The translations under genes and the position numbers were made by a program. The notes beneath the pieces were generated by a model. That model was not told the origin of the DNA. It made no database searches and was given only the letters and a program-made list of their open reading frames with translations. Positions 25,883 to 40,146 of a stretch of DNA of 43,436 nucleotides are shown piece after piece. This DNA is from Acidimicrobiia bacterium UBA6912 (GTDB lineage: Bacteria; Actinomycetota; Acidimicrobiia; Spongiisociales; UBA5794). The stretch covers positions 1-43,436 of the forward strand of contig DKBA01000001.1 of assembly GCA_002450985.1 (NCBI GenBank), in the 5' to 3' direction. The stretch's first letter is position 1; the number at the start of each line of letters is the position of its first letter.

Positions 25883-26290
25883 TCACGCGTCGGGGACGAC
25901 GGCGGTCGTGACGATCTCGATGACGGCTCGCGGCTCCACGAGCTCGGTGACGCCGAGCATCGCCATGGCGGGGAAGTGCCCGCCCATGTGTGTGCGCCAC
26001 ACGGCGCCGACCTCCCGGAGGTTTCCCCGGTACTCGTCCATCGCCGTGGTGTAGAGGTTCATCGCCACGACGTGCTCGGGAGCGGCGCCGGCGGCGGCGA
26101 GGGCGGTCACGACGTTGCCGAGCGCGGTATCGAACTGTTCGACGAGGCCCGGGCCGGTGAGTCGGCCCTCGGCATCGACGCCGATCTGGCCGGCGACGTA
26201 GACCGTCCTGCCCGGGGCGGGCACGACGGCGTGGGAGAACCCACGGGCCGCCACCATGCCCTCGGGCGACAGCAACTCGTGGGGGGTCAC
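25883..26290 (-). CDS. RidA/YjgF/L-PSP family protein (135 aa)
   Basis: GFSHAVVPAPGRTVYVAGQIGVD...NLYTT...PAMAMLGVTELV. GTG 26290 overlaps the hydratase stop (GTGA) and has GGAGGGG upstream. Confidence 0.8.
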   Translation of the reverse strand: MTPHELLSPEGMVAARGFSHAVVPAPGRTVYVAGQIGVDAEGRLTGPGLVEQFDTALGNVVTALAAAGAAPEHVVAMNLYTTAMDEYRGNLREVGAVWRTHMGGHFPAMAMLGVTELVEPRAVIEIVTTAVVPDA

Positions 26291-27114
26291 CTGCCCCTCC
26301 ACTGCGGGGTGCGGCCCTCCATGAACGCCGCATGGAACTCGGCGTGGTCGGACGTCGTCATCAGCAGCGCCTGCGTCATCGCCTCGAGCTCGAGCGCCGG
26401 GGCCAGTCCCATGTCGCTCTCCCGGGTGAGCAGGAGCTTCGTGGCGCGGTAGGCGAAGGTGGGGCCACCGGCGATGCGAGCCGCCAGCTCGCCTGCGGCG
26501 GAGGCCACCTCGGCATCGGGCACGACCCGAGTCGCGAGCCCGATCTCGAGGGCGCGGGCGGCGTCGACGGGGTCGCCGAACATAAGGATCTCGGTCGCCC
26601 GCCCCAGCCCCACGAGGCGGGGGAGGAGGTAGGCCGAGCCCATGTCGCCGCCGGAGAGACCGACCTTGGTGAAGAGGAAGTGGAAACGGGCGGACTCGGC
26701 GACCATGCGGAAGTCGGCGGCGAGGGCGATGACCGCACCCGCCCCTGCGGCGGTGCCGTTGACCGCGGCCACGATGGGGACGGGGCACTCCCGCATGTTC
26801 TGGACGACGGCGCCGGTCATCTTCGTGAACTCGAGCAGGTCGCGGGCGTCCATCGCGAGCAGCTCACCGATGATGGCGTCGACGTCGCCCCCCGAGCAGA
26901 AGCCCTTGCCGCGGCCGGTGATCACGAGCGCCTCGACGTCGTCGCGCAGGGGGAGGGCGCGCAGCAGATCACGCAGATCGGCGTACACCTCGAAGGTCAA
27001 GGCATTGAGCTTCCCTGGGCGGTTGAAGGTGAGCGTCGCCACCTGGCCGGCCACGTCGAAATCGAAGTGTTCCCACGATCGGCTGAACGGGTCGGAGGTG
27101 CGGAAGGGGCTCAT
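26287..27114 (-). CDS. Enoyl-CoA hydratase/isomerase (crotonase) family protein (275 aa)
   Basis: TLTFNRPGKLNAL, GKGFCSGGDV, AAVNGTAAGAGAVIALAADFR. ATG 27114 overlaps the SDR stop (ATGA). Confidence 0.85.
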   Translation of the reverse strand: MSPFRTSDPFSRSWEHFDFDVAGQVATLTFNRPGKLNALTFEVYADLRDLLRALPLRDDVEALVITGRGKGFCSGGDVDAIIGELLAMDARDLLEFTKMTGAVVQNMRECPVPIVAAVNGTAAGAGAVIALAADFRMVAESARFHFLFTKVGLSGGDMGSAYLLPRLVGLGRATEILMFGDPVDAARALEIGLATRVVPDAEVASAAGELAARIAGGPTFAYRATKLLLTRESDMGLAPALELEAMTQALLMTTSDHAEFHAAFMEGRTPQWRGR

Positions 27115-27866
27115 TGCTGGAGATCGCCCCCATCGATGAGGATCGACTGGCCGTTGATCGCCCCCGCCGCGTCCGAGGCGAGGAAGGCCACGGCGGCGGC
27201 CACCTCCTCGGGTTCGATGAGCCGCCCGAGACGGGTGCCGGCGAGGAGGGCTGCGAGCGCCTCCTCCTCGGAGCGTGAGGTCTTCTCCATGATGTTGGCG
27301 ATCGTGCGCTCCGTCATCGGGGTGCGCACATATCCCGGGCACACCGAGTTGGCGGTGATCCCGCTGCCGGGAAGCTCGGCCGACAGCGACCGCATCAGGC
27401 CGAGAACGGCATGTTTGGACGCCACATAGGCGGCGATGTAGGGGGCTCCCTGGTGCGAGGCGACGGAGGCGATGGTGACGATCCGTCCCCAGCCTCGCTC
27501 CCGCATGCCGGGCAGAACTTGCTGGATGCAGAGCAGCGGTCCGGTGGCGTTCACGCGGAGCATCCGATCCCAGGAGGCGAGGTCGATGCGCTGCACCGGG
27601 GCGGAGTCGGCGATGCCTGCGTTGTTGACCAGCACATCGACGGGTCCCGCCGCCGCAAACGCCTCCGTCACGGACGCCGGATCGGTCACGTCGCATGCCA
27701 CCGTGGTGACCGGCCCGGGTGCCGCCGCAGCCGTTGCGGCGAGGGCCTCCTGGTCCCGCCCCATCGCCACGACGTGGAACCCCTCGGCCGAGAGCCGCTC
27801 GACCACGGCGCGGCCGATGCCCTTGTTGCCGCCCGTCACCACGGCGCGTCGCACACGCTCGCTCAT
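27111..27866 (-). CDS. SDR-family oxidoreductase, 3-hydroxyacyl-CoA-dehydrogenase/FabG-like (251 aa)
   Basis: RRAVVTGGNKGIGRAV, NNAG, YVASKHAV. ATG 27866 is preceded by TATCGT plus 6 nt, suggesting a leaderless transcript. The upstream 31 codons of the track ORF are rejected. Confidence 0.85.
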   Translation of the reverse strand: MSERVRRAVVTGGNKGIGRAVVERLSAEGFHVVAMGRDQEALAATAAAAPGPVTTVACDVTDPASVTEAFAAAGPVDVLVNNAGIADSAPVQRIDLASWDRMLRVNATGPLLCIQQVLPGMRERGWGRIVTIASVASHQGAPYIAAYVASKHAVLGLMRSLSAELPGSGITANSVCPGYVRTPMTERTIANIMEKTSRSEEEALAALLAGTRLGRLIEPEEVAAAVAFLASDAAGAINGQSILIDGGDLQQ

Positions 27867-27872
27867 GGGGTC

Positions 27873-27878
27873 ACGATA
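27873..27878 (-). promoter_or_regulatory. Candidate -10 box (TATCGT) positioned for a leaderless SDR/hydratase/RidA operon transcript
   Basis: TATCGT-GACCCC-ATG(27866) read on the minus strand. No SD. Confidence 0.3.
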
Positions 27879-27923
27879 GAGCCCGCGCCGGCCGGCGTGC
27901 CGGAACGCAGCGCCCGCCGCAAC

Positions 27924-27929
27924 TAGGCT
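27924..27929 (+). promoter_or_regulatory. Candidate -10 box (TAGGCT) for the fused hydroxylase/reductase operon
   Basis: TAGGCT lies about 34 nt upstream of ATG 27963, followed by GAGGAGGA SD (27947-27954). It sits in the 96-bp divergent intergenic region. Confidence 0.25.
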
Positions 27930-27962
27930 CGGTGCGGCCGATCGGCGAGGAGGACGCACCAG

Positions 27963-30266
27963 ATGAGAGTGGCCTGCATCGGCGGCGGGCCCGGCGGGCT
28001 CTTCCTGTCGATCCTGCTACGCACGAGCGACCCCTCGATCGAGGTCGACGTGTTCGAGCGCAACGCCCGCGACGCCACGTTCGGGTTCGGCGTGGTGTTC
28101 TCCAACGAGACCCTCGACAATCTCGCTGCTGCGGATGGGCCGAGCCTGGAGCGGATCCAGCGCGAGTTCCGCTCGTGGGGCGAGATCGACACCTATCACC
28201 GCGGACGCTGGGTCCGCTCGACCGGTCACGGCTTCTCGGCGATCTCGCGGCTTCGCCTGCTGCAGATCCTCGCCGAACGGGCCGAGGAGGTGGGGGCGAA
28301 GGTCGTCTTCGAGAGCGACCTCGGGGTCGGCGATCTCGCCGGGTACGACCTCGTCGTGGCGGCGGACGGCGTCAACAGCGCAACCCGCAACGCCCGGCCG
28401 GCCGCCTTTGCACCCACCGTCGAGATGGGATCGGCGCGCTTCGTGTGGTTGGGTACGCACAAGCTCTTCGACGGCTTCACGTTCCTGTTCGAGGAGACGC
28501 CCTACGGCGTCGTGCAGGCCCATTGCTACCCGTTCGACGCCACGACCAGCACGATCATCGTCGAGATGGACCAGTCGACGTGGCGTAGGGCGGGCCTCGA
28601 CGCCGCAGAGCACCGTGGGTTGGAGCCGGGGGAGAGCGACCCGCAGGCCCTCGAGTTCGCCGAGGAGGTGTTCGGGCGTCATCTCGATGGCCAGGGTGTC
28701 ATCGGCAACAACTCGGTGTGGCGGACGTTCCCCACGGTGCGCTGCGACCGCTGGTACGACGGCAACGTGGTGCTGCTCGGCGACGCCGTGCACACCGCGC
28801 ATTTCTCGATCGGGTCGGGCACCAAGCTCGCGATGGAGGACGCCGTTGCGCTCGCCGAGGCCCTCGATGGTGAGCGGGACATCGCAACGGCGCTCGCCGT
28901 CTACCAGGAGGCACGCAAACCCGTCGCCGACAGCCTGCAGCGGGCCGCGGACACCAGCCGGGCGTGGTTCGAGTCGGTGGATCGCTACGCCTCGCTCCCC
29001 ACCCCTCAGTTCGTGTTCCAGCTGCTGACCCGTTCCCAGCGCATCACCCACGACAACCTCAAGCTGCGCGACCCGGACCTCGTTGCGCAGGCCCTCGAGT
29101 GGTTCCGCTCGACCGTCCCTGCGCACCTGCGCCCGCCCGACCCGGCCACCCCCCCGATGTTCTACCCGTTCGAGCTGCGCGGGCTCCGGCTCGCCAACCG
29201 GGTGGTGGTGTCCCCGATGGCGCAGTACTCGGCCGTCGACGGCTGCGTGACCGATTGGCACCTCGTCCACCTCGGCAGTCGCGCCGTTGGCGGCGCCGGT
29301 CTGGTGATGACGGAGATGACGTGCGTGTCCCCGCAGGGGCGGATCACCCCCGGCTGCGCCGGCCTGTGGAACGACACCCAGCAGGAGCGGTGGGCGCCGA
29401 TCGTCGACTTCGTGCATCGGGAGACCGGGGCTGCGATCGGGCTCCAACTGGGTCACGCAGGACGCAAGGGCTCGGTGAAGGTGCCGTGGGAAGGTGGGGG
29501 AGACCACACGCCGCTCGACGAGGGCAACTGGCCGTTGCTCGCCCCCTCGGCGCTTCCCTGGCACGCCGGGTCGCAGACGCCGGCCGAGATGACCAGGGCC
29601 GACCTGGACGCCGTCGTCGCGCAGTTCGCAGCCGCCACCCGGCGCGGCGCCGAGCTCGGCTTCGACCTGCTCGAGCTCCACTACGCCCACGGGTACTTGC
29701 TGTCCTCGTTCCTGTCGCCGCTCACCAACCGACGGGAGGACGAGTACGGCGGGTCGTTCGAGAACCGGCTCCGCTTCCCCCTCGAGGTGCTCGCCGCGGT
29801 GCGGCGGGCGTGGCCAGACGACAAGCCGCTCTCGGTCCGGATCTCCGCCACCGATTGGGTGGAGGGCGGGGTCACGGCCGAGGACGGGGCCGCCATCGCC
29901 GCAGCACTGGCCGCTCACGGCTGCGACATCGTCGACGTCTCGTCCGGCCAGGTCCACCCGGACCAGGCCCCGTTGTACGGCCGTCTCTACCAGACGCCCT
30001 TCAGCGACCGGATCCGCCACGAGGTCGGCGTGCCCACGATCACGGTTGGGGCGGTGTCGAGCGTCGACGACGTCAACACGATCATCCTGGCGGGAAGAGC
30101 CGACCTGTGCGCCCTCGCCCGGCCTCATCTCGTCGATCCGTACTGGACGCTCAACGCCGCCGTCGACCAAGAGTTCGCCGGTCATCCGTGGCCTTCGCAG
30201 TATCTGTCCGGTCGCACCGCACGCCGCAGAGAGCAGGACCCGCTACGTCGCGTCCCGACGGAGTGA
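27963..30266 (+). CDS. Bifunctional FAD aromatic hydroxylase / Old-Yellow-Enzyme-type reductase fusion (2-aminobenzoyl-CoA monooxygenase/reductase- or salicylyl-CoA 5-hydroxylase-like) (767 aa)
   Basis: N-half: MRVACIGGGPGGLFL, AADGVNSATR, GDAVHTAHFSIGSGTKLAMEDA. C-half: RVVVSPMAQYS, QLGHAGRKGS, LLELHYAHGYLLSSFLSP. GAGGAGGA SD upstream. Confidence 0.85.
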   Translation: MRVACIGGGPGGLFLSILLRTSDPSIEVDVFERNARDATFGFGVVFSNETLDNLAAADGPSLERIQREFRSWGEIDTYHRGRWVRSTGHGFSAISRLRLLQILAERAEEVGAKVVFESDLGVGDLAGYDLVVAADGVNSATRNARPAAFAPTVEMGSARFVWLGTHKLFDGFTFLFEETPYGVVQAHCYPFDATTSTIIVEMDQSTWRRAGLDAAEHRGLEPGESDPQALEFAEEVFGRHLDGQGVIGNNSVWRTFPTVRCDRWYDGNVVLLGDAVHTAHFSIGSGTKLAMEDAVALAEALDGERDIATALAVYQEARKPVADSLQRAADTSRAWFESVDRYASLPTPQFVFQLLTRSQRITHDNLKLRDPDLVAQALEWFRSTVPAHLRPPDPATPPMFYPFELRGLRLANRVVVSPMAQYSAVDGCVTDWHLVHLGSRAVGGAGLVMTEMTCVSPQGRITPGCAGLWNDTQQERWAPIVDFVHRETGAAIGLQLGHAGRKGSVKVPWEGGGDHTPLDEGNWPLLAPSALPWHAGSQTPAEMTRADLDAVVAQFAAATRRGAELGFDLLELHYAHGYLLSSFLSPLTNRREDEYGGSFENRLRFPLEVLAAVRRAWPDDKPLSVRISATDWVEGGVTAEDGAAIAAALAAHGCDIVDVSSGQVHPDQAPLYGRLYQTPFSDRIRHEVGVPTITVGAVSSVDDVNTIILAGRADLCALARPHLVDPYWTLNAAVDQEFAGHPWPSQYLSGRTARRREQDPLRRVPTE

Positions 30267-30276
30267 GGGCGGTGGC

Positions 30277-31440
30277 ATGAGCGAGTGGCGCCGCGAACTC
30301 CCCCGGCCCGCCGGCCTGATCGATGCCGAGGCGGAGCTGTTCGACCGGGCGCGCCACATCGCCCGCACCGATCTCGCCCCGCTCGCCGAGGCCGGGGAGC
30401 CCGGCCGGTTGCATCGGGCTCTCGTCGCCGCCATGGCCGACGCCGGGCTCGTTCCCCAGCTCTTCCCCGACTCTCACGGAGGGACCCAGCCGGGCGAGGT
30501 GTCTGCCCTGGTCCTGTGCCTGCTGCGCGAGGCCGTGGCCATCGAGTCGCCCGAGGCGGAGACTGCGCTGGCCATGCAGGGCCTCGGATCGTATCCCATC
30601 CTGCAATCTGCCCGCCCCGAGGTGGCGCAGCGATGGATCCCTCAGGTCGCAGACGGACGGGTGATCCCGGCGTTCGCCCTCACCGAGCCCGACGCCGGAT
30701 CGGATGCCGCCGCCCTGTCGGCGCGCGCCGAGCGGGACGGCGACGGGTGGCGGCTCAGCGGGGTGAAGACGTGGATCTCCAATGCACCGGATGCCGATGT
30801 CTACACCATGTTCGCCCGCACCACACCGGATGCCGGCGCGCGGGGCGTGTCCGCCTTCCTCGTGCCCGGCGACAGTGCGGGGCTCGGCGGCGAGCCGCTC
30901 GATCTGCTGTCGCCCCACCCGATCGGGACCGTCACCATGGATGGGGTGTACGTGCCTGCCGAGCACCTCCTCGGCGAGGTCGACCGCGGCTTCCCTGTTG
31001 CGATGCGCACCCTCGACCGCTTCCGCCCGTCGGTGGGTGCGTTTGCGGTCGGCATGGCGCAGGCGGCGCTCGAGGCCGCCATCGACCACGCTGCGACGCG
31101 GACGGCCTTTGGCGGCCCCCTGCGCGATCTGCAGGCCGTGGCCCATGCCCTGGCGGAGATGGAGGTGGCGACGCACACCGCCCGCCTGGTGGTGCACGAC
31201 GCAGCGCGGGCCTTCGATGCCGGCACCGAGCCGCTCACGATTCGCTCGTCGATGGCGAAGCTGTATGCGACCGAGGCGGCGCAGCGTGTCGTCGATGCCG
31301 CGATCCAGATCCACGGGGCACGGGGGCTCGAGCGCGGCCACCTGCTCGAGCGGCTCTACCGGGACGTGCGGGCCCCCCGCATCTACGAGGGCGCCTCGGA
31401 GGTGCAGCGTTCGATCATCGCCCGTCGTCTCTATGGATGA
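30277..31440 (+). CDS. Acyl-CoA dehydrogenase (387 aa)
   Basis: FALTEPDAGSDAAAL, WISNAPDADV, IYEGASEVQRSIIAR (catalytic Glu region). ATG lies 10 nt after the preceding stop. Confidence 0.9.
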   Translation: MSEWRRELPRPAGLIDAEAELFDRARHIARTDLAPLAEAGEPGRLHRALVAAMADAGLVPQLFPDSHGGTQPGEVSALVLCLLREAVAIESPEAETALAMQGLGSYPILQSARPEVAQRWIPQVADGRVIPAFALTEPDAGSDAAALSARAERDGDGWRLSGVKTWISNAPDADVYTMFARTTPDAGARGVSAFLVPGDSAGLGGEPLDLLSPHPIGTVTMDGVYVPAEHLLGEVDRGFPVAMRTLDRFRPSVGAFAVGMAQAALEAAIDHAATRTAFGGPLRDLQAVAHALAEMEVATHTARLVVHDAARAFDAGTEPLTIRSSMAKLYATEAAQRVVDAAIQIHGARGLERGHLLERLYRDVRAPRIYEGASEVQRSIIARRLYG

Positions 31441-31560
31441 CGTGGAGCGCATCGACCCGCACGCAGTGTCCTAACGTGGCTGCGCGCCGGCCGCCGGGAG
31501 CCGACCGAGCGGTGGCGGCTGCAGAGGGCAGGGCAGACGAGAGAGGCGAGGGCTTGCCCC

Positions 31561-33477
31561 ATGGCTGAGGAGTCCGGTTCGGCCTCACACGGTGCTCCTC
31601 ATGGTGGCGACGCCTCCAAGTACCTGCTCCTCATGTCGCTCGGGGCGCTCGGGGTGGTGTACGGCGACATCGGGACCAGCCCGCTCTATGCGCTGCGCGA
31701 GTCGTTCGTCGCCGCGGAGGGTCTCCCCGTGACCAAGGAGAACGTGCTCGGCGTCCTCTCCCTGATGATCTGGTCGCTCATCGTCGTGGTGACGGTCAAG
31801 TACCTGGCCTTCGTCATGCGCGCCGACAACCACGGGGAGGGCGGGATCCTCGCCCTCACGTCACTCATCACCCCGGCCAACCGGGGACGGCGGGCCGGGG
31901 TGCGGTGGGGACTCGTGCTGCTCGGACTGTTCGGCACCGCGCTCCTGTACGGCGACGGTGTGATCACGCCTGCCATCTCCGTCCTCTCTGCGGTGGAGGG
32001 CGTCGCCGTTGCGTCACCGGGGCTGGAGTCGTACGTCGTTCCCGCCGCCGCCGTGATCCTCGTCATCCTGTTCAGCATCCAGCGCAAGGGCACCGCGACC
32101 ATCGGCGCCGTGTTCGGGCCGGTGATGATCGTGTGGTTCGGCGTGCTCGCCGCGCTCGGTCTGTACCGGCTGCTCGGGGAGATCGACGTCATCGCTGCCG
32201 CAGTGCCCACCCACGCCATCACCTTCTTCACGACCCACCCCAAGCTGGGGTTCCTCGCGCTCGGGGCGGTCTTCCTCGTCGTCACCGGCTCCGAGGCGCT
32301 CTATGCGGACATGGGTCATTTCGGATCACGGCCGATCCGGCTCGGCTGGTTCTCCATCGTGTTCCCCGCCCTGCTCCTCAACTACCTCGGCCAGGGCGCG
32401 CTCCTGATCGACGACCCCGGCGCCATCACCAATCCCTTCTACGCGATGCCGCCCGGCTGGGCCGTGGTGCCACTCGTCGTGCTCGCCACGCTGGCGACGG
32501 TCATCGCTTCGCAGGCGCTGATCTCCGGAGCGTTCTCGCTGACGATGCAGGCGATCCAGCTCGGCTACCTGCCCAGGGTCCGCATCGATCACACCTCGCC
32601 TCGCCAGTTCGGACAGATCTACATCCCTTCCGTCAACTGGGCGCTGATGCTGGGGTGCGTCGGGCTCGTCTTCTCCTTCGGCTCGTCGACGAACCTGGCG
32701 GCTGCCTACGGGGTTGCGGTCACGTCCACGATGGTGATCACGACGATCCTCCTCTACTACGTCATGCGAGAGCGGTGGGGGTGGCCGCAGGCGCCCGCGC
32801 TCGCCCTCAGCGGCGTGTTCGGCGTAGTGGACGTCGCGTTCTTCGCGGCGAACATCGTCAAGGTGCCTGCCGGCGGCTGGTTCCCGCTGCTCGTCGGGGC
32901 CCTGGTGTTCACGACGATGACGACATGGGAACACGGCCGGGCGCTGCTGGCGGCGCGGCTGCATCGCGGCGAGCTGCCGGTCGAGCGCTTCATCGGGTCG
33001 ATCGCGGTGCATCCGCAGCCGCGGGTCTCGGGGACCGCGTTCTACATGTTCCCGGAGACCGGGGCGACCCCTCCGGCGCTGCTCGCCAACCTCCGCCACA
33101 ACGGGATGATCCACGAGACGGTTGCGCTCGTCGCGGTCCGCACCGCTTCGGTGCCCCGCGTCCCCCAGGCGCGGCGGGAGACCGTCCACGACCTCGGCGA
33201 AGGGTTCGTCCAGATCGAGCTGGCGTTCGGGTTCATGGAGGAACCCAACGTGCCGGCTGCGCTGTCCAACATCGTGTCCCCCGAGTTCGGGTTCACGATG
33301 AGCGACGCCGTCTTCTTCCTCGGCCGGGAGTCGGTGATCCCGAGTGAGGTGCCCGGGATGGCCAGGTGGCGTGAGCACCTCTTCGCGTTCATGCACCGAA
33401 ACGCATCGAGCGCCGCCGGCTTCTTCGGACTGCCCAGCGACCGAGTCGTCGAGATCGGGCTCCGGGTCGAGATCTGA
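31561..33477 (+). CDS. kup: KUP/HAK/KT potassium uptake transporter (638 aa)
   Basis: LGALGVVYGDIGTSPLYAL hallmark, 12 hydrophobic segments, soluble C-terminal domain. Confidence 0.95.
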   Translation: MAEESGSASHGAPHGGDASKYLLLMSLGALGVVYGDIGTSPLYALRESFVAAEGLPVTKENVLGVLSLMIWSLIVVVTVKYLAFVMRADNHGEGGILALTSLITPANRGRRAGVRWGLVLLGLFGTALLYGDGVITPAISVLSAVEGVAVASPGLESYVVPAAAVILVILFSIQRKGTATIGAVFGPVMIVWFGVLAALGLYRLLGEIDVIAAAVPTHAITFFTTHPKLGFLALGAVFLVVTGSEALYADMGHFGSRPIRLGWFSIVFPALLLNYLGQGALLIDDPGAITNPFYAMPPGWAVVPLVVLATLATVIASQALISGAFSLTMQAIQLGYLPRVRIDHTSPRQFGQIYIPSVNWALMLGCVGLVFSFGSSTNLAAAYGVAVTSTMVITTILLYYVMRERWGWPQAPALALSGVFGVVDVAFFAANIVKVPAGGWFPLLVGALVFTTMTTWEHGRALLAARLHRGELPVERFIGSIAVHPQPRVSGTAFYMFPETGATPPALLANLRHNGMIHETVALVAVRTASVPRVPQARRETVHDLGEGFVQIELAFGFMEEPNVPAALSNIVSPEFGFTMSDAVFFLGRESVIPSEVPGMARWREHLFAFMHRNASSAAGFFGLPSDRVVEIGLRVEI

Positions 33478-33504
33478 GGTCAGCCGGCCGAGATTCGCGT
33501 CCGG

Positions 33505-35043
33505 TCAGGACTCGGTCATCTCGATCCTGGCCGCCAGCGCCCTGCGGTCGACCTTGCCCAGGTGGGTCTTGGGGAAGTCGTCGACGAGCACGACGCGACG
33601 AGGGTGTTTGTAGGGCTCGAGCCGCGCCAGCACGTGCTCGATCAGCTCCTGCTCGAGTCCTGGGTGGCGCACCCGGGCGACCACGAACGCCACGGGCTTG
33701 ACCAGCCCGGCATCGTCGGCGACACCGACCACGACGCATTCGACGACGGCGTCGTGCTCGAGGAGGCACCCCTCCACCTCCTGCGGGGCGAGCCACTTGC
33801 CGGAGACCTTCATCGAATCGTCCGCCCTGCCGTGATGCTCGATGTAGCCGTCGGCGTCACGGCGCACGAGGTCACCCCCGACGAACCACTCGCCCCGGAA
33901 GGCGGCGGCAGTGCGGGGCAGGTCCTGCCAGTAGCCCCATGCCCGTGATGCGCCCCGCACCCAGAGCCGTCCGATCTCGCCGTCGGCGACGTCCTCTCCG
34001 GCCTCGTCGCAGATGCGCACGTCGAACCCGGGGACCGGCGTGCCCAGGGTGCCCGGCTTCACGTCGCCCGGGCGGTTGGTCAGGAAGATGTGCCACATCT
34101 CGGCGGTGCCGAGACCGTCGAGCAGCTCGACGCCATAGGCCGCCGTCCACTGGTGGTAGAGCTCGGCCGGCAAGGCCTCGCCTGCGGATGTCGCCAGCCG
34201 CAGCGAGGAGAGATCCGCCTGTGCCGCCTGCGGGTCGGCCAGCATCTTGGCGATCATCGTGGGTACCGTGACGAGGATGGTGGGCCGGTGCCTTGCGATC
34301 TGCTCGACGATGAGTGCCGGGGTGGGATGGTCGGGGAAGAGCACGGCCGAGGCGCCGACGGAGAACGGGAAGAACAGATTGGAGCCGGTGGCGTACCCGA
34401 AGATGAGCTTCGGGATCGAGATCGTGATGTCGTCCTCTCGGTAGCCGATGATCTCGTGGGCGTAGCGCAACGTGGTGTTCAGGAACGACCCGTGGGTCTG
34501 GATCACGGCCTTCGGGGTCCCGGTGGTGCCTCCGGAGAAGAGCCAGAGGGCCGGATCGTCGCGATGGGTGACGGCGGCGGGAAACGAGATCTCGTGGGTG
34601 ATGGCGTCGGCGAACGTGTCGAGCAGGGGATGGCCGACGCCGGCGAGCGACATGGCCTCCGCGGCGAGGACCGAGAGGTCGTGGCCGGCGACGACGGCGC
34701 CCGGCCGGGCGAGCCGGAGGATGTCGGCGATGCGGTCTCTGGGGAGATCCGGATTCACCATCACCCCGACTGCCCCGAGCTTCAAGGCACCGAACAGGGC
34801 GCCGACGAAATCCGCTCCGTCGCGCGCGATCAAGACCACCCGCTCCTCACGCCGCACCCCGGCATCGGCGAGGGCTGCGGCGTAGCCGGAAGCCAGCGCC
34901 TCGACCTCGGCATACGTCATGGTCCGGTCGGACAGGCGAAGGGCGGTGCGGTCTCCGCGACCCTCGGCGAGTCGCCGGGTCAGGAACACCTCCGCCAGGT
35001 TCACCTCTCGAGGCACGGCGGGTCCGGGAGCTGATTGCGGCAT
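33505..35043 (-). CDS. Aryl-CoA ligase of the benzoate/2-aminobenzoate/4-hydroxybenzoate-CoA ligase type (AMP-binding superfamily) (512 aa)
   Basis: LFSGGTTGTPKAVIQTHGSF (AMP motif), GYATGSNLFFPFSVGASAVLF, GDLVRRDADGYIEHHGRADDSMKVSGKWLAPQEVE. Confidence 0.85.
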   Translation of the reverse strand: MPQSAPGPAVPREVNLAEVFLTRRLAEGRGDRTALRLSDRTMTYAEVEALASGYAAALADAGVRREERVVLIARDGADFVGALFGALKLGAVGVMVNPDLPRDRIADILRLARPGAVVAGHDLSVLAAEAMSLAGVGHPLLDTFADAITHEISFPAAVTHRDDPALWLFSGGTTGTPKAVIQTHGSFLNTTLRYAHEIIGYREDDITISIPKLIFGYATGSNLFFPFSVGASAVLFPDHPTPALIVEQIARHRPTILVTVPTMIAKMLADPQAAQADLSSLRLATSAGEALPAELYHQWTAAYGVELLDGLGTAEMWHIFLTNRPGDVKPGTLGTPVPGFDVRICDEAGEDVADGEIGRLWVRGASRAWGYWQDLPRTAAAFRGEWFVGGDLVRRDADGYIEHHGRADDSMKVSGKWLAPQEVEGCLLEHDAVVECVVVGVADDAGLVKPVAFVVARVRHPGLEQELIEHVLARLEPYKHPRRVVLVDDFPKTHLGKVDRRALAARIEMTES

Positions 35044-35153
35044 GGCGCTTGCTCTGCGATCGCGGGCTCGGCATCATATCCGACGGTGGCGGCGACCCGC
35101 CAGGACGCTGCGTCGCGGGCGCCGCCGGCCACCGCCAGCGGGAGAGCATCGGC

Positions 35154-36260
35154 ATGACGGACTCGGGTGGGCGACCCCCGGTGTACTACCACGACTACCT
35201 CCGGCTCGACCGGCTGCTCAGCAGCCAGGCGCCCGAGTCGGCCAAGTACGGCGACGAAGCTCACGACGAGCTGCTGTTCATCATCGTTCACCAGGCCTAC
35301 GAGCTGTGGTTCAAGCAGATCCTCCACGAGCTGGACGACGTGCACGAGGTCTTCAGCCGCCCCTTCGTGCCCGAGCGCGAGATGGGCAGGGTGGCGTCCC
35401 GGCTCGAGAGGGTCGTCGCCATCCAACGGATCCTGATCGACCACGTGGACGCCCTGGAGACGATGACACCGCTCGACTTCCTCGACTTCCGCGATCTGCT
35501 CGTGCCGGCCAGCGGGTTCCAGAGCCTCCAGTTCCGTCTGATCGAGAACCTGCTGGGCCTGCCCCACGAGCAGCGTGTCCTCATCAACGAAGCGGACTAT
35601 ACGACTCGCTTCTCGTCCGAGCACCGGGACATCCTCGAGCGGTCTCATGGCCGCGCTTCCCTCTTCGAGCTCGTCGACGCCTGGCTCCAGCGCACCCCGT
35701 TCCTCCACTTCGGCGACTTCGACTTCTGGGACTCGTACCGGGACGCCGTCGCCCGCATGCTCGACCGGGATCGCTCCCTGATCGTGTCCAACCCCAACCT
35801 CACCGAAGAGGGTCGCGGCGAGCAGCTCGCCAGGTTCGATGCGACCGCCGACACCTTCGCCGCGCTGTTCGACGCCGAGCGGTACGAGGCGCTCCTGGCC
35901 GGCGGCATACGGCGGCTGAGCCGGGAGGCGTTCCTCGCTGCGCTCCTCATCAACCTCTATCGAGACGAACCGATCCTGCAACTCCCGTTCCGGGTGCTGC
36001 GGGCGCTCATGGACGTCGACGAGGGCTTCACGACATGGCGTTACCGCCACGCGATCATGGTGCAGCGCATGATCGGCTCGAAGATCGGCACCGGGGGCAC
36101 GAGCGGGCACGACTACCTCCGGGAGACCGCCCGCCGCCACCGGGTGTGGAACGATCTCTTCGACCTCTCGACGTTCTTCATCCCTCGCTCCGAGCTTCCG
36201 GAGCTCCCCGAATCGGTGGCGGAGGCGATGCGGTTTCACCCCACTTCTGAGCCTCGGTGA
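35154..36260 (+). CDS. kynA: Tryptophan 2,3-dioxygenase (368 aa)
   Basis: YYHDYLRLDRLLSSQ, DELLFIIVHQAYELWFKQILHEL, RHAIMVQRMIGSKIGTGGTSGHDYL. GGGAGAG SD upstream of ATG 35154. The first 35 codons of the track ORF are rejected. Confidence 0.9.
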   Translation: MTDSGGRPPVYYHDYLRLDRLLSSQAPESAKYGDEAHDELLFIIVHQAYELWFKQILHELDDVHEVFSRPFVPEREMGRVASRLERVVAIQRILIDHVDALETMTPLDFLDFRDLLVPASGFQSLQFRLIENLLGLPHEQRVLINEADYTTRFSSEHRDILERSHGRASLFELVDAWLQRTPFLHFGDFDFWDSYRDAVARMLDRDRSLIVSNPNLTEEGRGEQLARFDATADTFAALFDAERYEALLAGGIRRLSREAFLAALLINLYRDEPILQLPFRVLRALMDVDEGFTTWRYRHAIMVQRMIGSKIGTGGTSGHDYLRETARRHRVWNDLFDLSTFFIPRSELPELPESVAEAMRFHPTSEPR

Positions 36261-37390
36261 GCTATCGACGCTGGTTCCGCAGCTTCCTCGGCGCCGAGCG
36301 GCTGCACTTCGCCGCCCATTCCCATCACCTGTGGCCGGACGTCACCCATGATGCCCACGACCGGGCATGGCGGGATGCCGCGGAGCACGCCGATCACAAG
36401 TGGGACCTCGTGCTCGGCGAGGTGGTGCCCGAGACGCAGGGCCATGTCGCCGCCCGCATCGGGTTGCCCGACCCGACCACCATCGCGATCGCCCCCAACA
36501 CCCATGAGCTCGTCAACCGACTCGTCTCCTCGCTCCCGCAGCCGCTCCGTATCCTGAGCACCGACGGAGAGTTCCACAGCTTCCGGCGCCAGGCCGACCG
36601 ATGGGAGGAGGCGAAGTTGGCGTTCGTGGATCGGGTGCCGGTGGAGCCGTTCGCCACATTTCCCGATCGCTTCGTCGATGCCGCCCACGACGGCCACGAT
36701 CTCGTCTACGTCAGCCACGTCTTCTACGACTCGGCGTACGCGATCCCCGATCTCGCCGGGTTGGTGGACGCGCTCCCGCTCGACCCGGTCGTCGTCATCG
36801 ACGGCTACCACGGGTTCATGGCGATCCCAACCGATATCGGCCCGATCGGCCACCGGGTGTTCTACACGGCCGGCGGGTACAAGTACGCGATGGCGGGCGA
36901 GGGCGTGTGCTTCATGCACTGTCCGCCGGGCGTCGTGTCTCGCCCCGTCGATACCGGGTGGTTCGCCGGCTTCGGCGCCCTCGAAGGCGAGCAGATCGGC
37001 GTGCCCTACCCACGGGACGCAGCGCGTTTCTGGGGTGCGACGTTCGACCCCACGCCTCTGTATCGCTTCAACGCCGTGCAGCGGCTCCTCGACACTGAGG
37101 GGATCGATGTCGCTGCGATCCACGACCACGTGATGGGCCTCATCTCACGGTTCGTCGCAGGTCTCGCCGGGAGCCAGGCGCTCGGCGAGCTGATCCCGTC
37201 GTGGGGATCGGTGGAGGAGCGGGGCCACTTCCTCACGTTTCGCGGCCCGGACACCGCGAGGTTGCACGATCGCCTCGATGCGGCGGGCGTCGTCACCGAC
37301 CGCAGGGGCGACCGATTGCGCATCGGGTTCGGTATCTATCACGATGAGGGTGACGTCGATAGCCTGCTTGGCATCGTGCGGAGCCTGTGA
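36257..37390 (+). CDS. Class-V aminotransferase-fold PLP enzyme, kynureninase-like (377 aa)
   Basis: GTG 36257 overlaps the kynA stop (GTGA). TAGGYKYAMAGEGVCFM resembles the kynureninase PLP-lysine region. Shorter than canonical KynU and with a different N-terminus, so the function is inferred mainly from context. Confidence 0.65.
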   Translation: MSYRRWFRSFLGAERLHFAAHSHHLWPDVTHDAHDRAWRDAAEHADHKWDLVLGEVVPETQGHVAARIGLPDPTTIAIAPNTHELVNRLVSSLPQPLRILSTDGEFHSFRRQADRWEEAKLAFVDRVPVEPFATFPDRFVDAAHDGHDLVYVSHVFYDSAYAIPDLAGLVDALPLDPVVVIDGYHGFMAIPTDIGPIGHRVFYTAGGYKYAMAGEGVCFMHCPPGVVSRPVDTGWFAGFGALEGEQIGVPYPRDAARFWGATFDPTPLYRFNAVQRLLDTEGIDVAAIHDHVMGLISRFVAGLAGSQALGELIPSWGSVEERGHFLTFRGPDTARLHDRLDAAGVVTDRRGDRLRIGFGIYHDEGDVDSLLGIVRSL

Positions 37391-37414
37391 CCGTCTCAAC
37401 GTCAGGAGAGAGCG

Positions 37415-38779
37415 ATGACGGAGTACACCAAGATCACGCTCGACGAGAGCGAGATGCCCACCCAGTGGTACAACATCATCCCCGATCTGCCCGCCCCGCC
37501 GCCGCCACCCCTGCACCCCGGCACCCACCAGCCGATCGGCCCGGACGATCTCGCTCCGCTGTTCCCGATGGCGCTGATCGGCCAGGAGGTGTCGACCGAC
37601 CGTCACGTCGACATCCCCGGTGAGGTCCTCGACATCTACCGCCTGTGGCGCCCATCCCCGCTGTACCGAGCCCATCGCCTCGAGAAGCTGCTCGATACTC
37701 CTGCGAGGATCTACTACAAGTACGAGGGCGTGAGCCCCGCCGGCTCCCACAAGCCCAACACGGCGGTGCCGCAGGCGTTCTACAACGCCGCCGAGGGGGT
37801 GAGGAAGCTCACGACGGAGACGGGCGCCGGCCAGTGGGGGAGTGCGCTCTCTCTCGCGTGTGCCATGTTCGACATGGAGTGCGAGGTGTGGCAGGTGCGA
37901 GCCTCGTACGACGCCAAGCCGCACCGGAAGACGATGATGGCCGTGTGGGGCGCCACCGTGCACCCGAGCCCGTCGGACGTGACGAACGCCGGAAGGACCA
38001 TCCTCGCCCAGGACCCCGACAGCCCCGGCTCACTGGGTATCGCCATCTCGGAAGCCGTCGAGGCGGCCGCCGCCGATCCGACGGTGAAGTACGCGCTCGG
38101 CAGCGTGCTCAACCACGTCCTCATGCACCAGACGATCATCGGTGAGGAGGCGCTGCTCCAGTTCGCAAAGATCGGCGAGACGCCCGACGTCCTCGTCGGC
38201 TGCACCGGCGGCGGCTCGAACTTCGGTGGTCTCTCCTTCCCCTTCCTGCGCGAGAAGCTCGCAGGACGGATGAGCCCGACCATCCGGTGCGTCGAGCCCG
38301 CGGCGTGTCCGTCGTTGACCAAGGGCGTCTACCGGTACGACTTCGGCGATACGATCGGCATGACGCCGCTCGTGAAGATGCACACGCTCGGCCACGACTT
38401 CGTGCCGGATCCGATCCACGCCGGGGGACTGCGGTACCACGGGATGGCACCGCTCGTGTCGCACCTGTACGAGATGGGTCTCGTCGAGGCCGAGGCGATC
38501 GGCCAGCTCGAGTGTTTCGACGGCGCCCTCAAGTTCGCCAAGACCGAAGGCATCATCCCCGCCCCGGAGCCGACCCACGCCATTGCGGCGGCCATCAGGG
38601 AGGCCAACCGGGCCAAGGAGAGCGGCGAGGAGCGCGTCATCCTCACGGCATTGTGCGGGCACGGGCACTTCGACCTCAAGGCCTACGAGGACTTCCTCGG
38701 CGGCCACATGGTGGACTACGAATACCCTGCGGAGAAGGTGGCGGCGGCGATGGAGAGGGTGCCCGTCATCGAAGACTGA
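37415..38779 (+). CDS. trpB2: TrpB2-type tryptophan-synthase-beta-like PLP enzyme (454 aa)
   Basis: [22 protein letters not shown] long N-terminal arm, [18 protein letters not shown] (PLP Lys), [34 protein letters not shown], 24 nt after the preceding stop. Confidence 0.85.
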
Positions 38780-38800
38780 CAGACCCGAACGGCGGCCTCG

Positions 38801-39010
38801 CTACGGCCCGGGTGGCCCTCCGCGCGCGCCGCCGTACTGGGTGTTGAAGTCCTTGATGTTGCCGTTGACCTCGGTGCCGAGAAACTGCAGCGCGGCAAGC
38901 GCGGCGATGGCGATCAACATGGCCAGGAAGGCGTATTCGACGAGGCTTGCTCCGCGATCGTTCGCGGGCAGCGAGTGCCACCAGGCGAGCGTTCTGAGAC
39001 CCAACCGCAT
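38801..39010 (-). CDS. flp: Flp/Fap-family type IVb (Tad) pilin prepeptide (69 aa)
   Basis: Leader ending ...ANDRG followed by ASLVEYAFLAMLIAIAALAAL (G/xxxxEY Flp processing motif plus hydrophobic helix). Weak SD, so the start is uncertain. Confidence 0.75.
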   Translation of the reverse strand: MRLGLRTLAWWHSLPANDRGASLVEYAFLAMLIAIAALAALQFLGTEVNGNIKDFNTQYGGARGGPPGP

Positions 39011-39090
39011 GCTCCGACGTCCATTCCCCCACGTGACGCCCCACCGCGGGACGCACCGACGCCACTCGTCGATATACGTACCCTAACTCT

Positions 39091-39115
39091 CGACCCGTCT
39101 GAGTGCCACGGGTCG
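39091..39115 (-). terminator. Perfect 8-bp stem / 9-nt loop hairpin between the patatin gene stop and flp
   Basis: CGACCCGT-ctgagtgcc-ACGGGTCG, read directly. Lies 75 nt downstream of the patatin stop (39190) on the minus strand. No U-tract follows. Confidence 0.3.
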
Positions 39116-39189
39116 GCCGCATCAAAGAGGGCAGCCGTGTGGTCCTGCGGCGCGTACCGAGCGGGCCTGCGAGGCGGCGCCGCTATCGA

Positions 39190-40146
39190 TCAGACGTTCG
39201 TTCTGACCAGGTGCCGGTGCAGCACCTGCCAGGTGTCCGGCCTGGCCAGCTCGTCCTTCAGGGAGCGCAGCGTTCGCAAGAACGCAGGCACCGCGGCCTT
39301 GGTGGAGAGGGGATTGGGACGGGTGACGGCGAGCACCCGCTCGTCGGGTCTGAAGACCACGATGTCGGTGCCCGGCCACTCGGCTCGCACCCGCTCCAGC
39401 TCCTGGGCCAGCGCCGCCCGCCCTGCTCGATCGAAGGCGTCCTCGTAGAAGCGCGCCCCCTCTCGGGACTCCGAGGCCGCCATCGGGGCGACCACGATCA
39501 CCAGGTCGAGCTGCGTCGATGAGCCGAGCACGAGATCGGCGCTCGTACCCGAGGCGATGCCCCCGTCCGCATACCACCGGCCGCCGATCTCCACCGGCTC
39601 GAACACCATCGGCACCGCCACGGAGGCGGCGACGGCGTGCTTCAAGCTCGCCGAAGGGGCCGCATCGGTCCCGAACGGCGCCCGGCGGCGTTGCGCCAGG
39701 TCGAAGGCACAGATGACGGTTGGCTCCTCGGGCCACCCGTCGGCGAGAGGTCCGAGCCGCTCCTCCACCCAATCGACGATGCCGTCCGTCGTGTAGAGCG
39801 CAGGTGACCCCGCCACCAGGCGGAGATCGGGCCGGGTGAGCCCGGGCAGGATGCCACGCCGCACCCAGCGCACCACGCCCTTTGGCCGGACGCTGCGCCG
39901 GTAGACGCGCGACCGGAGGCGACGTGCCACCTCGTCGCGAGAGTGCGCTTCGTCGAGGAAGGCGTCGATCGACAGCTGGCCGCCGCGCAGCATCGCAGCC
40001 GTGAATGCCCCGCAGGACGTGCCGACGATGACGTCTGCCTGGCTGGGGTGCCATCCGGTAGCCATCTCGAGGGCGAGCAGGGTGCCGAGATGGTACGAGG
40101 CACCGGTGATGCCGCCGCCGCCGAGTACCAACCCTACCGTTGCCAT
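39190..40146 (-). CDS. Patatin-like phospholipase (318 aa)
   Basis: VLGGGGITGASYHLG (oxyanion GGGxxG), GTSCGA (GxSxG), YADGGI (DG[GA] catalytic Asp). Confidence 0.85.
   Translation of the reverse strand: MATVGLVLGGGGITGASYHLGTLLALEMATGWHPSQADVIVGTSCGAFTAAMLRGGQLSIDAFLDEAHSRDEVARRLRSRVYRRSVRPKGVVRWVRRGILPGLTRPDLRLVAGSPALYTTDGIVDWVEERLGPLADGWPEEPTVICAFDLAQRRRAPFGTDAAPSASLKHAVAASVAVPMVFEPVEIGGRWYADGGIASGTSADLVLGSSTQLDLVIVVAPMAASESREGARFYEDAFDRAGRAALAQELERVRAEWPGTDIVVFRPDERVLAVTRPNPLSTKAAVPAFLRTLRSLKDELARPDTWQVLHRHLVRTNV

What the first reader, a model, noticed from the sequence alone, without database searches (positions are those of the whole stretch)
37415..38779. A TrpB2 tryptophan-synthase-beta paralogue at the tail of a tryptophan-degrading operon
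Seen: a 454-aa TrpB2-type ORF with a long N-terminal arm ([22 protein letters not shown]), [11 protein letters not shown] and [13 protein letters not shown]. It starts 24 nt after the kynU-like stop with its own GGAGAG SD, on the same strand as kynA. No trpA or any other trp biosynthesis gene is in the window. Established: TrpB-type enzymes condense indole with L-serine to give tryptophan. TrpB2 paralogues act independently of TrpA and have been proposed as indole-salvage enzymes. Inference: a Trp-forming enzyme co-transcribed with Trp-destroying enzymes is counter-intuitive. It would make sense if the locus assimilates free indole or substituted indoles via indole -> Trp -> kynurenine -> anthranilate -> CoA pathway. 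It would also make sense if this TrpB2 performs a different beta-replacement or beta-elimination reaction on a pathway intermediate.
Basis: partly seen in the sequence, partly recalled or inferred. Interest (0 to 1): 0.6.

Follow-up and report, generated by a model that had tools for sequence, protein, structure and literature searches.

The report
TrpB2 indole-capturing enzyme inside tryptophan-breakdown cluster
An extra, stand-alone tryptophan-synthase beta gene (TrpB2) is the last gene of a tryptophan-degrading operon in an uncultured actinobacterium, and the same pairing recurs in other bacteria and, independently, in archaea, which suggests an undescribed way of feeding free indole into tryptophan breakdown.

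Summary
Window 37415-38779(+) encodes an intact 454-aa TrpB2 (NF009057, 728 bits against a cut-off of 366). It starts 24 nt after a kynureninase-like gene that is itself stop/start-overlapped with a long-form tryptophan 2,3-dioxygenase (TDO).

It is not the housekeeping copy. The same Acidimicrobiia MAG carries trpC-trpF-trpB1-trpA on another contig.

The linkage is not a one-off. TrpB2 sits inside the Trp -> anthranilate -> aryl-CoA cluster in three different gene orders, in several Acidimicrobiia families and in one Egibacteraceae MAG.

I also tested a lead from earlier notes of this scan on other DNA. Nitrososphaerales archaea carry a tight trpB2-TDO(-MBL hydrolase) operon built from a different TrpB2 lineage and a short-form TDO.

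The linkage is facultative:
- 77 of 80 TDO/kynureninase-like loci lack TrpB2 within 10 kb.
- Five of seven closest homologues looked up lie elsewhere.
- Relatives that lack the kyn genes keep TrpB2.
- No residue distinguishes linked from unlinked copies.

Best reading (about 0.5): an ordinary out-of-operon TrpB2 converts indole plus serine or O-phosphoserine to Trp, which TDO and the kynureninase-like enzyme then degrade. The scan had noted similar arrangements before (e1-3056818, e1-2422959, e1-2587341).

The parts
37415..38779 (+). TrpB2 (out-of-operon, TrpB2_o-like stand-alone tryptophan synthase beta paralogue), 454 aa
   Evidence: NF009057 728 bits and TIGR01415 630 bits. PDB 6hul_B 441 bits, with the PLP lysine (SHK), TETGAGQWG and GGGSN motifs aligned.
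37391..37414 (+). 24-nt spacer with GGAGAG Shine-Dalgarno (37405-37410)
   Evidence: Read from the sequence. No promoter-like or terminator-like site in 34800-39300. Spacers of about 28-65 nt in relatives G001, G016 and G031.
36257..37390 (+). Divergent kynureninase-like PLP enzyme, 377 aa (GGYKYAMAGEG lysine motif); its GTG start overlaps the TDO stop
   Evidence: Only a weak Pfam KYNU_C match (23.6 bits, below the cut-off) and no single-sequence PDB hit. The family profile A1 hits P. fluorescens kynureninase 1qz9 best (E 1e-14), then human kynureninase, then cysteine desulfurases. A TDO lies immediately upstream in most of 80 loci across several phyla.
35154..36260 (+). Long-form (eukaryote-like, full-length PF03301) tryptophan 2,3-dioxygenase; the ORF is open from 35049 but the likely start is ATG 35154
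   Evidence: PF03301 358 bits over 15-345 of 346 profile positions. Start choice. Orthologues are called at 368 aa.
33505..35043 (-). Aryl-CoA ligase (benzoate-CoA ligase family), divergent from the TDO operon; presumed anthranilate-CoA ligase
   Evidence: TIGR02262 471 bits, cut-off 375.
27963..30266 (+). Fused FAD monooxygenase/OYE reductase (2-aminobenzoyl-CoA or salicylyl-CoA monooxygenase/reductase type)
   Evidence: NF006101 1104 bits, cut-off 1078. PF01494 plus PF00724.
30277..31440 (+). Acyl-CoA dehydrogenase
   Evidence: PF00441, PF02770 and PF02771. Start choice.
25883..27959 (-). SDR - enoyl-CoA hydratase - RidA operon of the aryl-CoA module
   Evidence: PF13561; PF00378 and PF01042. 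In gene order C of other genomes TrpB2 follows RidA on the same strand.
38801..39082 (-). Small Flp-like ORF convergent with TrpB2; marks the end of the plus-strand unit
   Evidence: PF04964 24.6 bits, below the cut-off. Conserved at this position in G001, G022 and G003.

Best explanation
The gene encodes an ordinary, catalytically intact, out-of-operon TrpB2. This is a stand-alone PLP enzyme that condenses free indole with L-serine or O-phospho-L-serine to give L-tryptophan.

In this genome it is the third gene of a TDO / kynureninase-like / TrpB2 transcription unit. That unit belongs to a larger cluster for Trp -> N-formylkynurenine -> kynurenine -> anthranilate (+ alanine) -> anthraniloyl-CoA -> ring reduction and beta-oxidation.

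Proposed role: TrpB2 is the entry point for free indole. TDO cannot open bare indole. TrpB2 attaches a serine-derived alanyl side chain, TDO then cleaves the pyrrole ring, and the kynureninase-like enzyme releases the side chain again as alanine. Indole, whether environmental or made by the cell's own tryptophanase-like enzyme, is thereby detoxified and assimilated through the same cluster that degrades tryptophan.

Shown: gene identity, anatomy, a separate trpB1A operon, and recurrent linkage. Inferred: co-transcription, indole as substrate, and flux into catabolism.
For: Identity:
- NF009057 728 bits. Catalytic Lys, Glu and GGGSN are conserved and align to TrpB2 structures.

Not housekeeping:
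- trpC-trpF-trpB1-trpA lie on C215.

Operon anatomy:
- GTGA overlap between TDO and the kynureninase-like gene, then a 24-nt spacer with a Shine-Dalgarno sequence, and no terminator-like site.

Recurrent linkage in three gene orders:
- A: CoA-ligase(-) | TDO-KynU-TrpB2(+). Seen in G000, G001, L055, G016, L154 and L175, and in G022 with a 2.8-kb insert.
- B: SDR-ECH-RidA-TDO-KynU-TrpB2-CoA-ligase, all on one strand, in G031.
- C: TDO-KynU convergent with ACMR/SDR-ECH-RidA-TrpB2. Seen in G309, G211, G284, G030 and an Egibacteraceae MAG.
- Sources.

Within the 13-member TrpB2 subclade:
- All 8 members whose loci carry the kyn genes have TrpB2 in the cluster.
- The 5 unlinked members have no kynureninase-like orthologue.

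Independent origin in archaea:
- 11 of 13 informative metagenome contigs with a short-form TDO motif have a TrpB2 (46-49% identical to this one; the one scanned, L157, scores NF009057 616 bits) directly upstream on the same strand.
- Three Nitrososphaerales contexts show TrpB2-TDO(-MBL).

Literature:
- TrpB2 has high indole affinity and has been proposed, and genetically supported, as an indole-salvage enzyme (Hettwer & Sterner 2002 and Hiyama 2014, as cited in PMC11917138 and PMC11085991).
Against: - The linkage is facultative. Only 3 of 80 kynureninase-like loci have TrpB2 within 10 kb.
- In the class sample, 4 of 26 genomes with both a long TDO and TrpB2 have them adjacent.
- Five of seven close homologues (85-90% identical) sit in an unrelated uridine-kinase/Usp/PFOR context.
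- G003 and G005 keep TrpB2-(Flp)-patatin-MshD-ThrS without any kyn genes. In G003 the whole 12.9-kb cluster block is an indel next to TrpB2. TrpB2 may therefore be a resident gene beside a mobile island.
- No linked-specific residues exist.
- No kynurenine formamidase of the cyclase type was found in the 84%-complete genome.
- No indole transporter or regulator was recognised.
- No expression or enzyme data exist.
Confidence: 0.5

Rival explanations
1. Generic indole-salvage or Trp-homeostasis TrpB2 with no dedicated catabolic role. Its place behind the kynureninase-like gene reflects inherited synteny: a resident gene next to which a catabolic island was inserted, or from which the island was deleted in relatives.
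For: - G003 has the DDAH-like gene and TrpB2 as direct divergent neighbours. In the window the same two genes are separated by the 12.9-kb block that carries the cluster.
- G003, G005, G023, G034 and G059 keep TrpB2 without a kynureninase-like orthologue.
- 77 of 80 clusters lack TrpB2.
- TrpB2 is far more conserved than the cluster genes: 85% against about 60% identity in G031.
- Unlinked contexts are heterogeneous.
Against: - There are three different gene orders, including TrpB2 sandwiched between the kynureninase-like gene and the CoA ligase (G031), and TrpB2 behind RidA in the aryl-CoA operon (family f3, Egibacteraceae).
- An independent archaeal trpB2-TDO operon exists.
- Chance adjacency within 5 kb is about 0.3% per 3-Mb genome.
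Confidence: 0.32
2. Neofunctionalised TrpB2 that performs another beta-replacement or beta-elimination on a pathway intermediate or on a substituted indole, not the canonical indole + serine reaction.
For: TrpB-type enzymes accept many nucleophiles (general knowledge). The physiological substrate of TrpB2 is debated, with O-phosphoserine proposed by Busch 2014 (cited).
Against: - No alignment column distinguishes 9 linked from 28 unlinked copies.
- Catalytic motifs are intact.
- Homologues 85-87% identical occur in unrelated contexts.
Confidence: 0.08
3. Serine or O-phosphoserine deaminase working with RidA. TrpB2 releases aminoacrylate, RidA hydrolyses it, and the pair yields pyruvate.
For: In gene order C, TrpB2 follows RidA on the same strand, with gaps of 117-149 nt in G284 and G211.
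Against: - In the window RidA lies 11 kb away, in an SDR-ECH-RidA operon.
- The archaeal operons pair TrpB2 with TDO, not with RidA.
Confidence: 0.05
4. It is simply the housekeeping trpB of this organism.
For: None beyond homology to TrpB.
Against: A trpB1 scoring over the TIGR00263 cut-off (424 bits), next to trpA, trpF and trpC, lies on C215. It is interrupted only by an NN assembly gap.
Confidence: 0.01

Closest known systems
TrpB2_o stand-alone tryptophan synthase beta paralogues (Thermotoga maritima TrpB2, Thermococcus kodakarensis TrpB2; classification of Merkl 2007, PMC1854888)
   Same: Same family (NF009057/TIGR01415). The gene lies outside the trp operon in a genome that also has an operon-based trpB1. 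It carries the short insertion of non-operon TrpB2 and keeps intact catalytic motifs.
   Different: Here, and in relatives, the gene is embedded in a tryptophan/anthranilate catabolic cluster. That context was not described in the papers I could search.
Sulfolobus solfataricus TrpB2i / TrpB2a (PDB 6HUL, 4QYS, 6HTE)
   Same: Closest solved structures: 441 and 403 bits, with full-length alignment.
   Different: The archaeal TrpB2i sits in the trp operon, binds TrpA and lacks the 4-5 residue insertion present here. Those genomes have no TrpB1.
Bacterial anthranilate branch of the kynurenine pathway (kynA-kynB-kynU, e.g. Pseudomonas aeruginosa, PMC4938989)
   Same: A TDO followed by a kynureninase-type PLP enzyme that gives anthranilate.
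   Different: The TDO is the long form. The kynureninase-like enzyme belongs to a divergent 377-aa family below the Pfam and NCBIfam thresholds. No KynB was found. A Trp-forming TrpB2 is co-located.
Aerobic 2-aminobenzoyl-CoA ('hybrid') anthranilate pathway (abm genes of Azoarcus evansii; from general knowledge)
   Same: Aryl-CoA ligase plus a fused flavin monooxygenase/reductase, with enoyl-CoA hydratase, SDR and acyl-CoA dehydrogenase.
   Different: The module is physically joined to TDO/kynureninase-like genes and to TrpB2. The substrate of the fused enzyme (anthraniloyl-CoA or salicylyl-CoA) is not established.
Oxygenase-type indole degradation (iif/ind clusters; review PMC6221969)
   Same: The end product would also be anthranilate, derived from indole.
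   Different: Those routes oxidise indole directly (indoxyl/isatin) with flavin oxygenases. The route proposed here goes through tryptophan and kynurenine. The review contains no indole-via-tryptophan degradation route.
Bifidobacterium indole -> Trp -> indole-3-lactate salvage (PMC11085991)
   Same: Exogenous indole is first converted to Trp by a TrpB and then metabolised further.
   Different: That route uses a TrpC-TrpB fusion and ends in indole-lactate. There is no TDO and no ring cleavage.

Membership tests
TrpB2 (TrpB-like PLP-dependent enzyme, NF009057 / TIGR01415) | Score above the curated cut-off of the family models | tested here: met
   NF009057 728.4 bits against 366; TIGR01415 630.1 bits against 518.85.
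TrpB2 (TrpB-like PLP-dependent enzyme, NF009057 / TIGR01415) | PLP-binding lysine, catalytic Glu in xETGAGQxG, GGGSN phosphate loop and the long N-terminal arm | tested here: met
   [12 protein letters not shown] and [10 protein letters not shown] align to 6hul_B, and the N-terminus aligns from residue 11. 121 of 457 columns are invariant over 40 relatives.
TrpB2_o sensu Merkl 2007 | Gene outside the trp operon in a genome with an operon-based trpB1 | tested here: met
   trpC-trpF-trpB1-trpA lie on C215. TrpB2 lies on C300 with no trp genes nearby.
TrpB2_o sensu Merkl 2007 | Insertion of 2-6 residues that operon-based TrpB1 and TrpB2_i lack (PMC1854888) | tested here: met
   A 4-residue insertion relative to SsTrpB2i and a 5-residue insertion relative to the in-operon Acidimicrobiia TrpB2 of G142, G153 and G201. 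I did not verify that this is the same position as the paper's 243/244.
TrpB2_o sensu Merkl 2007 | Groups with reference TrpB2_o sequences (T. maritima, M. acetivorans) in a tree | not tested
The tree holds Acidimicrobiia sequences only.
TrpB2_o sensu Merkl 2007 | No complex with TrpA; high indole affinity; O-phosphoserine preference | not testable with these tools
   These are biochemical properties (Hettwer & Sterner 2002 and Busch 2014, cited).
Housekeeping TrpB1 (TIGR00263) | Score above 392.45 bits, with an adjacent trpA | tested here: not met
   136.8 bits. No trpA in the window.
Kynurenine-to-anthranilate operon (kynA, kynB, kynU) | Tryptophan 2,3-dioxygenase | tested here: met
   PF03301 358 bits, cut-off 34.9.
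Kynurenine-to-anthranilate operon (kynA, kynB, kynU) | Kynureninase | tested here: inconclusive
   KYNU_C scores 23.6 bits against a cut-off of 27, and no NCBIfam model matches. The family profile hits kynureninase 1qz9 best, at E 1e-14 over the C-terminal 60%. A TDO is its conserved upstream partner in most of 80 loci.
Kynurenine-to-anthranilate operon (kynA, kynB, kynU) | Kynurenine formamidase (KynB, cyclase fold) | tested here: not met
   No PF04199 match in the genome, which is 84% complete. Other hydrolase folds were not excluded.
Aerobic 2-aminobenzoyl-CoA pathway | Aryl-CoA ligase plus fused monooxygenase/reductase | tested here: met
   TIGR02262 471 bits against 375; NF006101 1104 bits against 1078. 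Substrate identity cannot be tested here.

The most novel reading that the evidence does not exclude
TrpB2 plus TDO, with a formamidase and a kynureninase where present, forms an evolutionarily recurrent 'borrow-a-side-chain' module for catabolising free indole. Serine is attached to indole, the pyrrole ring is opened by TDO, and the side chain is returned as alanine.

The module would have been assembled independently in Acidimicrobiia/Egibacteraceae, where it funnels into 2-aminobenzoyl-CoA, and in Nitrososphaerales archaea. If so, the long-sought physiological role of out-of-operon TrpB2 would, at least in these lineages, be catabolic entry of indole and not amino-acid salvage.
Probability: 0.4. 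Interest if true: 0.75.

Novelty: new variant of a known kind. Interest (0 to 1): 0.58.

Why it matters
The physiological role of out-of-operon TrpB2 has been open since the enzyme was described. Indole salvage, O-phosphoserine use and other roles have all been proposed.

A recurrent physical coupling of TrpB2 to tryptophan 2,3-dioxygenase, in two domains of life and in different gene orders, gives a concrete and testable hypothesis. Under it, TrpB2 feeds free indole into oxidative tryptophan catabolism.

Indole is a widespread signal, toxin and pollutant. The aerobic degradation routes covered by the indole review I read (PMC6221969) use direct oxygenation. A route through tryptophan and kynurenine would be a new entry in indole biodegradation and would explain why a Trp-forming gene sits among Trp-destroying genes.

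The three genes are small and could be tested directly in E. coli.

Tried and rejected
- Housekeeping trpB: rejected, because trpB1-trpA lie on C215.
- Linked-specific active-site changes: none found.
- Single clade of all cluster-linked TrpB2: disfavoured (AU p = 0.014, groups named after seeing the tree). Separate origin (horizontal transfer) of the family-f3 linked copies: suggested by the tree but not established, because the AU test does not reject one f3 clade (p = 0.087).
- Consistent alternative partner in unlinked contexts: none. Neighbours were DDAH-like, DUF302, thiolase, TetR, Usp, uridine kinase, DUF389, acetyl-CoA synthetase and DUF456. A uridine-kinase / TrpB2 / Usp / PFOR synteny does recur.
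- Short-form TDO next to TrpB2 within Acidimicrobiia: none on the same contig.
- Promoter and terminator scan of 34800-39300: nothing found, which is uninformative in 70% GC DNA.
- Literature: no paper in the searchable library links TrpB2 to TDO or kynurenine genes.
- TDO in 200 other genomes of the archaeal class: found only in the genome used as centre, so no statistic was possible.
- Tryptophanase-family genes as a correlate of linkage: present in G000 and, as pairs, in G001, G022, G031 and G211; not found in G016, G309, G284 and G030. No clean pattern.

Full report
**What is there**

The window is a whole 43.4-kb contig (C300) of a 70% GC, 84%-complete MAG. Close homologues of the TrpB2 are named Acidimicrobiia bacterium.

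Its family scores are:

| Model | Score (bits) | Cut-off (bits) |
|---|---|---|
| NF009057 (TrpB-like PLP enzyme) | 728 | 366 |
| TIGR01415 | 630 | 519 |
| TIGR00263 (true trpB) | 137 | 392 |

The closest solved structures are S. solfataricus TrpB2 proteins (6hul_B 441 bits, 4qys_B 404 bits). TrpB1 structures score 117 bits or less. The PLP lysine, the catalytic Glu of TETGAGQWG and the GGGSN loop all align.

**Neighbours**

- Upstream lies a long-form TDO (PF03301, 358 bits). Its likely start is ATG 35154.
- The TDO stop overlaps the start of a 377-aa PLP enzyme at 36257-37390. That gene ends 24 nt before the TrpB2 start. GGAGAG lies at 37405-37410.
- The PLP enzyme is a divergent kynureninase relative:
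  - Alone it matches nothing in PDB and only weakly matches KYNU_C.
  - A 23-sequence family profile hits P. fluorescens kynureninase best (E 1e-14), then human kynureninase, then cysteine desulfurases.
  - A TDO is its immediate upstream partner in most of 80 loci from Actinomycetota, Alphaproteobacteria, Flavobacteriaceae, Myxococcota, Acidobacteriota and others.
- Divergent from the TDO is a benzoate-CoA-ligase-family enzyme.
- Further upstream lie kup, an acyl-CoA dehydrogenase and a fused flavin monooxygenase/OYE reductase (NF006101, 1104 bits). A minus-strand SDR-enoyl-CoA hydratase-RidA operon follows.

The locus therefore reads as Trp -> kynurenine -> anthranilate -> aryl-CoA catabolism.

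**It is not the housekeeping copy**

Contig C215 carries trpC, trpF, trpB1 (424 bits, over the cut-off, broken only by an NN assembly gap) and trpA, plus a trpE fragment. In Merkl's scheme (PMC1854888) this is an 'i1_o2' genome and the gene is TrpB2_o by context.

The protein also has a 4-5 residue insertion (around [11 protein letters not shown]). This insertion is missing from SsTrpB2i and from a shorter TrpB2 form that sits inside trpC-trpB2-trpF-trpB1-trpA operons of other Acidimicrobiia families. That matches the insertion the paper describes for non-operon TrpB2.

**Is the linkage more than chance?**

TrpB2 occurs in 153 of 301 sampled genomes of the class. Long-form TDO occurs in 27. 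Among the 26 genomes with both, 4 have the two genes within 2 kb. The other 22 have them on different contigs or hundreds of kb apart.

Adding the nearer relatives and public contigs, I found TrpB2 inside the cluster in three gene orders:

| Order | Arrangement | Where seen |
|---|---|---|
| A | CoA-ligase(-) / TDO-KynU-TrpB2(+) / Flp-patatin-MshD-ThrS | G000, G001, L055, G016, L154, L175; G022 with a DUF7507 gene inserted |
| B | SDR-ECH-RidA-TDO-KynU-TrpB2-CoA-ligase, all on one strand | G031 (another family) |
| C | TDO-KynU convergent with ACMR/SDR-ECH-RidA-TrpB2 | G309, G211, G284 (family f3), G030 (partial), one Egibacteraceae MAG |

In a 40-sequence tree, the linked copies other than the Egibacteraceae one fall in a weakly supported 13-member subclade (SH-aLRT 80). 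Its five unlinked members (G003, G005, G023, G034, G059) have no kynureninase-like orthologue at all. A separate, well-supported family-f3 TrpB2 clade is never linked to the TDO of those genomes.

AU tests disfavour one exclusive clade of all linked copies (p = 0.014). They do not reject a single origin of all f3 copies (p = 0.087). Horizontal transfer of TrpB2 with the cluster is therefore suggested but not established.

**Evidence for caution**

- Only 3 of 80 kynureninase-like loci have TrpB2 within 10 kb.
- Of seven close homologues (85-90% identical) whose contigs I read, two are order A. Five lie in a different recurring context of uridine kinase, Usp and PFOR.
- Other unlinked contexts are heterogeneous.
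- In G003 a DDAH-like gene, 62% identical to window 23644-24531, is the direct divergent neighbour of TrpB2. The 12.9-kb block holding the whole cluster is therefore an indel beside a resident TrpB2.
- No alignment column separates linked from unlinked copies. This argues against a changed reaction. It also shows that the enzyme is not specialised for the cluster.

**Independent support from archaea**

Earlier first-reader notes of this scan, on other genomes, described trpB2-TDO-MBL operons. I tested that lead as follows:

- I back-translated the quoted TDO motif and scanned metagenome contigs.
- Of 15 contigs, 13 were informative. Eleven of those carry a TrpB2 (46-49% identical to this one) directly upstream of, and co-directional with, a short-form TDO.
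- In L157 the gaps are 9 and 7 nt, and a metallo-beta-lactamase-fold protein follows.
- The L157 TrpB2 scores NF009057 616 bits.
- Homologues are named Thaumarchaeota/Nitrososphaerales.
- Three further contexts all show TrpB2-TDO, one of them with the MBL gene.
- Two of these MAGs gave no trpA hit, and one has only this TrpB. Both are small and of unknown completeness.

This is a different TrpB2 lineage, a different TDO form and a different gene order. The coupling of TrpB2 to TDO therefore arose at least twice.

**Mechanism**

The most economical reading is that TrpB2 does its canonical chemistry: indole plus serine or O-phosphoserine gives Trp. This supplies TDO. The kynureninase-like enzyme then releases anthranilate and returns the C3 unit as alanine. 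The CoA ligase and the flavin monooxygenase/reductase take anthranilate on.

The genome also encodes a tryptophanase/tyrosine-phenol-lyase-family protein (NF009709, 685 bits), so indole may be endogenous as well as environmental. No cyclase-type formamidase was found.

Co-transcription, substrate and flux are all inferred.

**Novelty**

Papers in the searchable library describe TrpB2 as a putative indole-salvage or O-phosphoserine-dependent enzyme. The indole-biodegradation review contains no route through tryptophan. No paper linked TrpB2 to TDO or kynurenine genes.

The gene itself is an ordinary member of a known family. The recurrent catabolic context is what is new. The scan had noted similar arrangements on other DNA (e1-3056818, e1-2422959, e1-2587341).

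Noticed in passing
L151 (G142), L152 (G153), L153 (G201); also L144 (G205): A shorter TrpB2 form, about 60% identical to the window's and lacking the 5-residue insertion, sits inside trpC-trpB2-trpF-trpB1-trpA operons of other Acidimicrobiia families. Those operons therefore hold both a TrpB2 and a TrpB1.
   Followed up: partly
L157:88-3172; L172:4101-8258; L173:5052-8222; L174:4093-9094: Nitrososphaerales archaea carry a tight TrpB2-TDO(-MBL-fold hydrolase) operon, usually preceded by one or two co-directional proteins of about 310 aa with no Pfam family. One of these weakly resembles SsuA-type binding proteins. The two MAGs checked gave no trpA hit.
   Followed up: partly
window 36257-37390 and loci L054-L133: The 377-aa kynureninase-like protein represents a widespread family (47-81% identical to the window's across Actinomycetota, Alphaproteobacteria, Flavobacteriaceae, Myxococcota, Planctomycetota and Acidobacteriota). 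Pfam and NCBIfam models do not reach their cut-offs for it. It usually follows a long-form TDO directly.
   Followed up: partly
G000:C311:24198-25328 (-), outside the window: The genome encodes a 461-aa tryptophanase/tyrosine-phenol-lyase-family protein (NF009709, 685 bits, below both equivalog cut-offs). Relatives G001, G022, G031 and G211 each have two paralogues.
   Followed up: partly
window 24532-37414 compared with L038 (G003) 10916-11045: In G003 the DDAH-like gene and TrpB2 are direct divergent neighbours, 129 bp apart. In the window the same two genes are separated by a 12.9-kb block (EEP nuclease-fold gene plus the whole aryl-CoA/kyn cluster). This is a clean presence/absence polymorphism.
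   Followed up: partly
L036 (G022) 6375-9164: A 929-aa DUF7507-domain protein is inserted between the kynureninase-like gene and TrpB2 in G022, splitting the otherwise conserved order A.
   Followed up: no
L155, L156, L176, L177, L178, L140: A second recurring context exists for close TrpB2 homologues: uridine kinase, then PatA_N or Polyketide_cyc2, then TrpB2, with Usp and pyruvate:ferredoxin oxidoreductase further downstream, sometimes after a sigma-70-type gene.
   Followed up: no
window 35049-35153 and 30046-30276: The longest ORFs overstate two genes. The TDO probably starts at ATG 35154, which leaves a 110-bp divergent region to the CoA ligase. The acyl-CoA dehydrogenase probably starts at ATG 30277. 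An overlapping 427-aa ORF at 30285-31568 has no Pfam or NCBIfam match and is probably the wrong frame.
   Followed up: yes
G000:C215:3750-3755, outside the window: The housekeeping trpB1 appears split into two frames only because of an 'NN' in the assembly. It is not a demonstrated frameshift.
   Followed up: yes
L059 (Egibacteraceae) 11092-16138: In the Egibacteraceae cluster a WS/DGAT acyltransferase gene lies in the gap between the kynureninase-like gene and TrpB2, and a DsrE-like gene lies between RidA and TrpB2.
   Followed up: no
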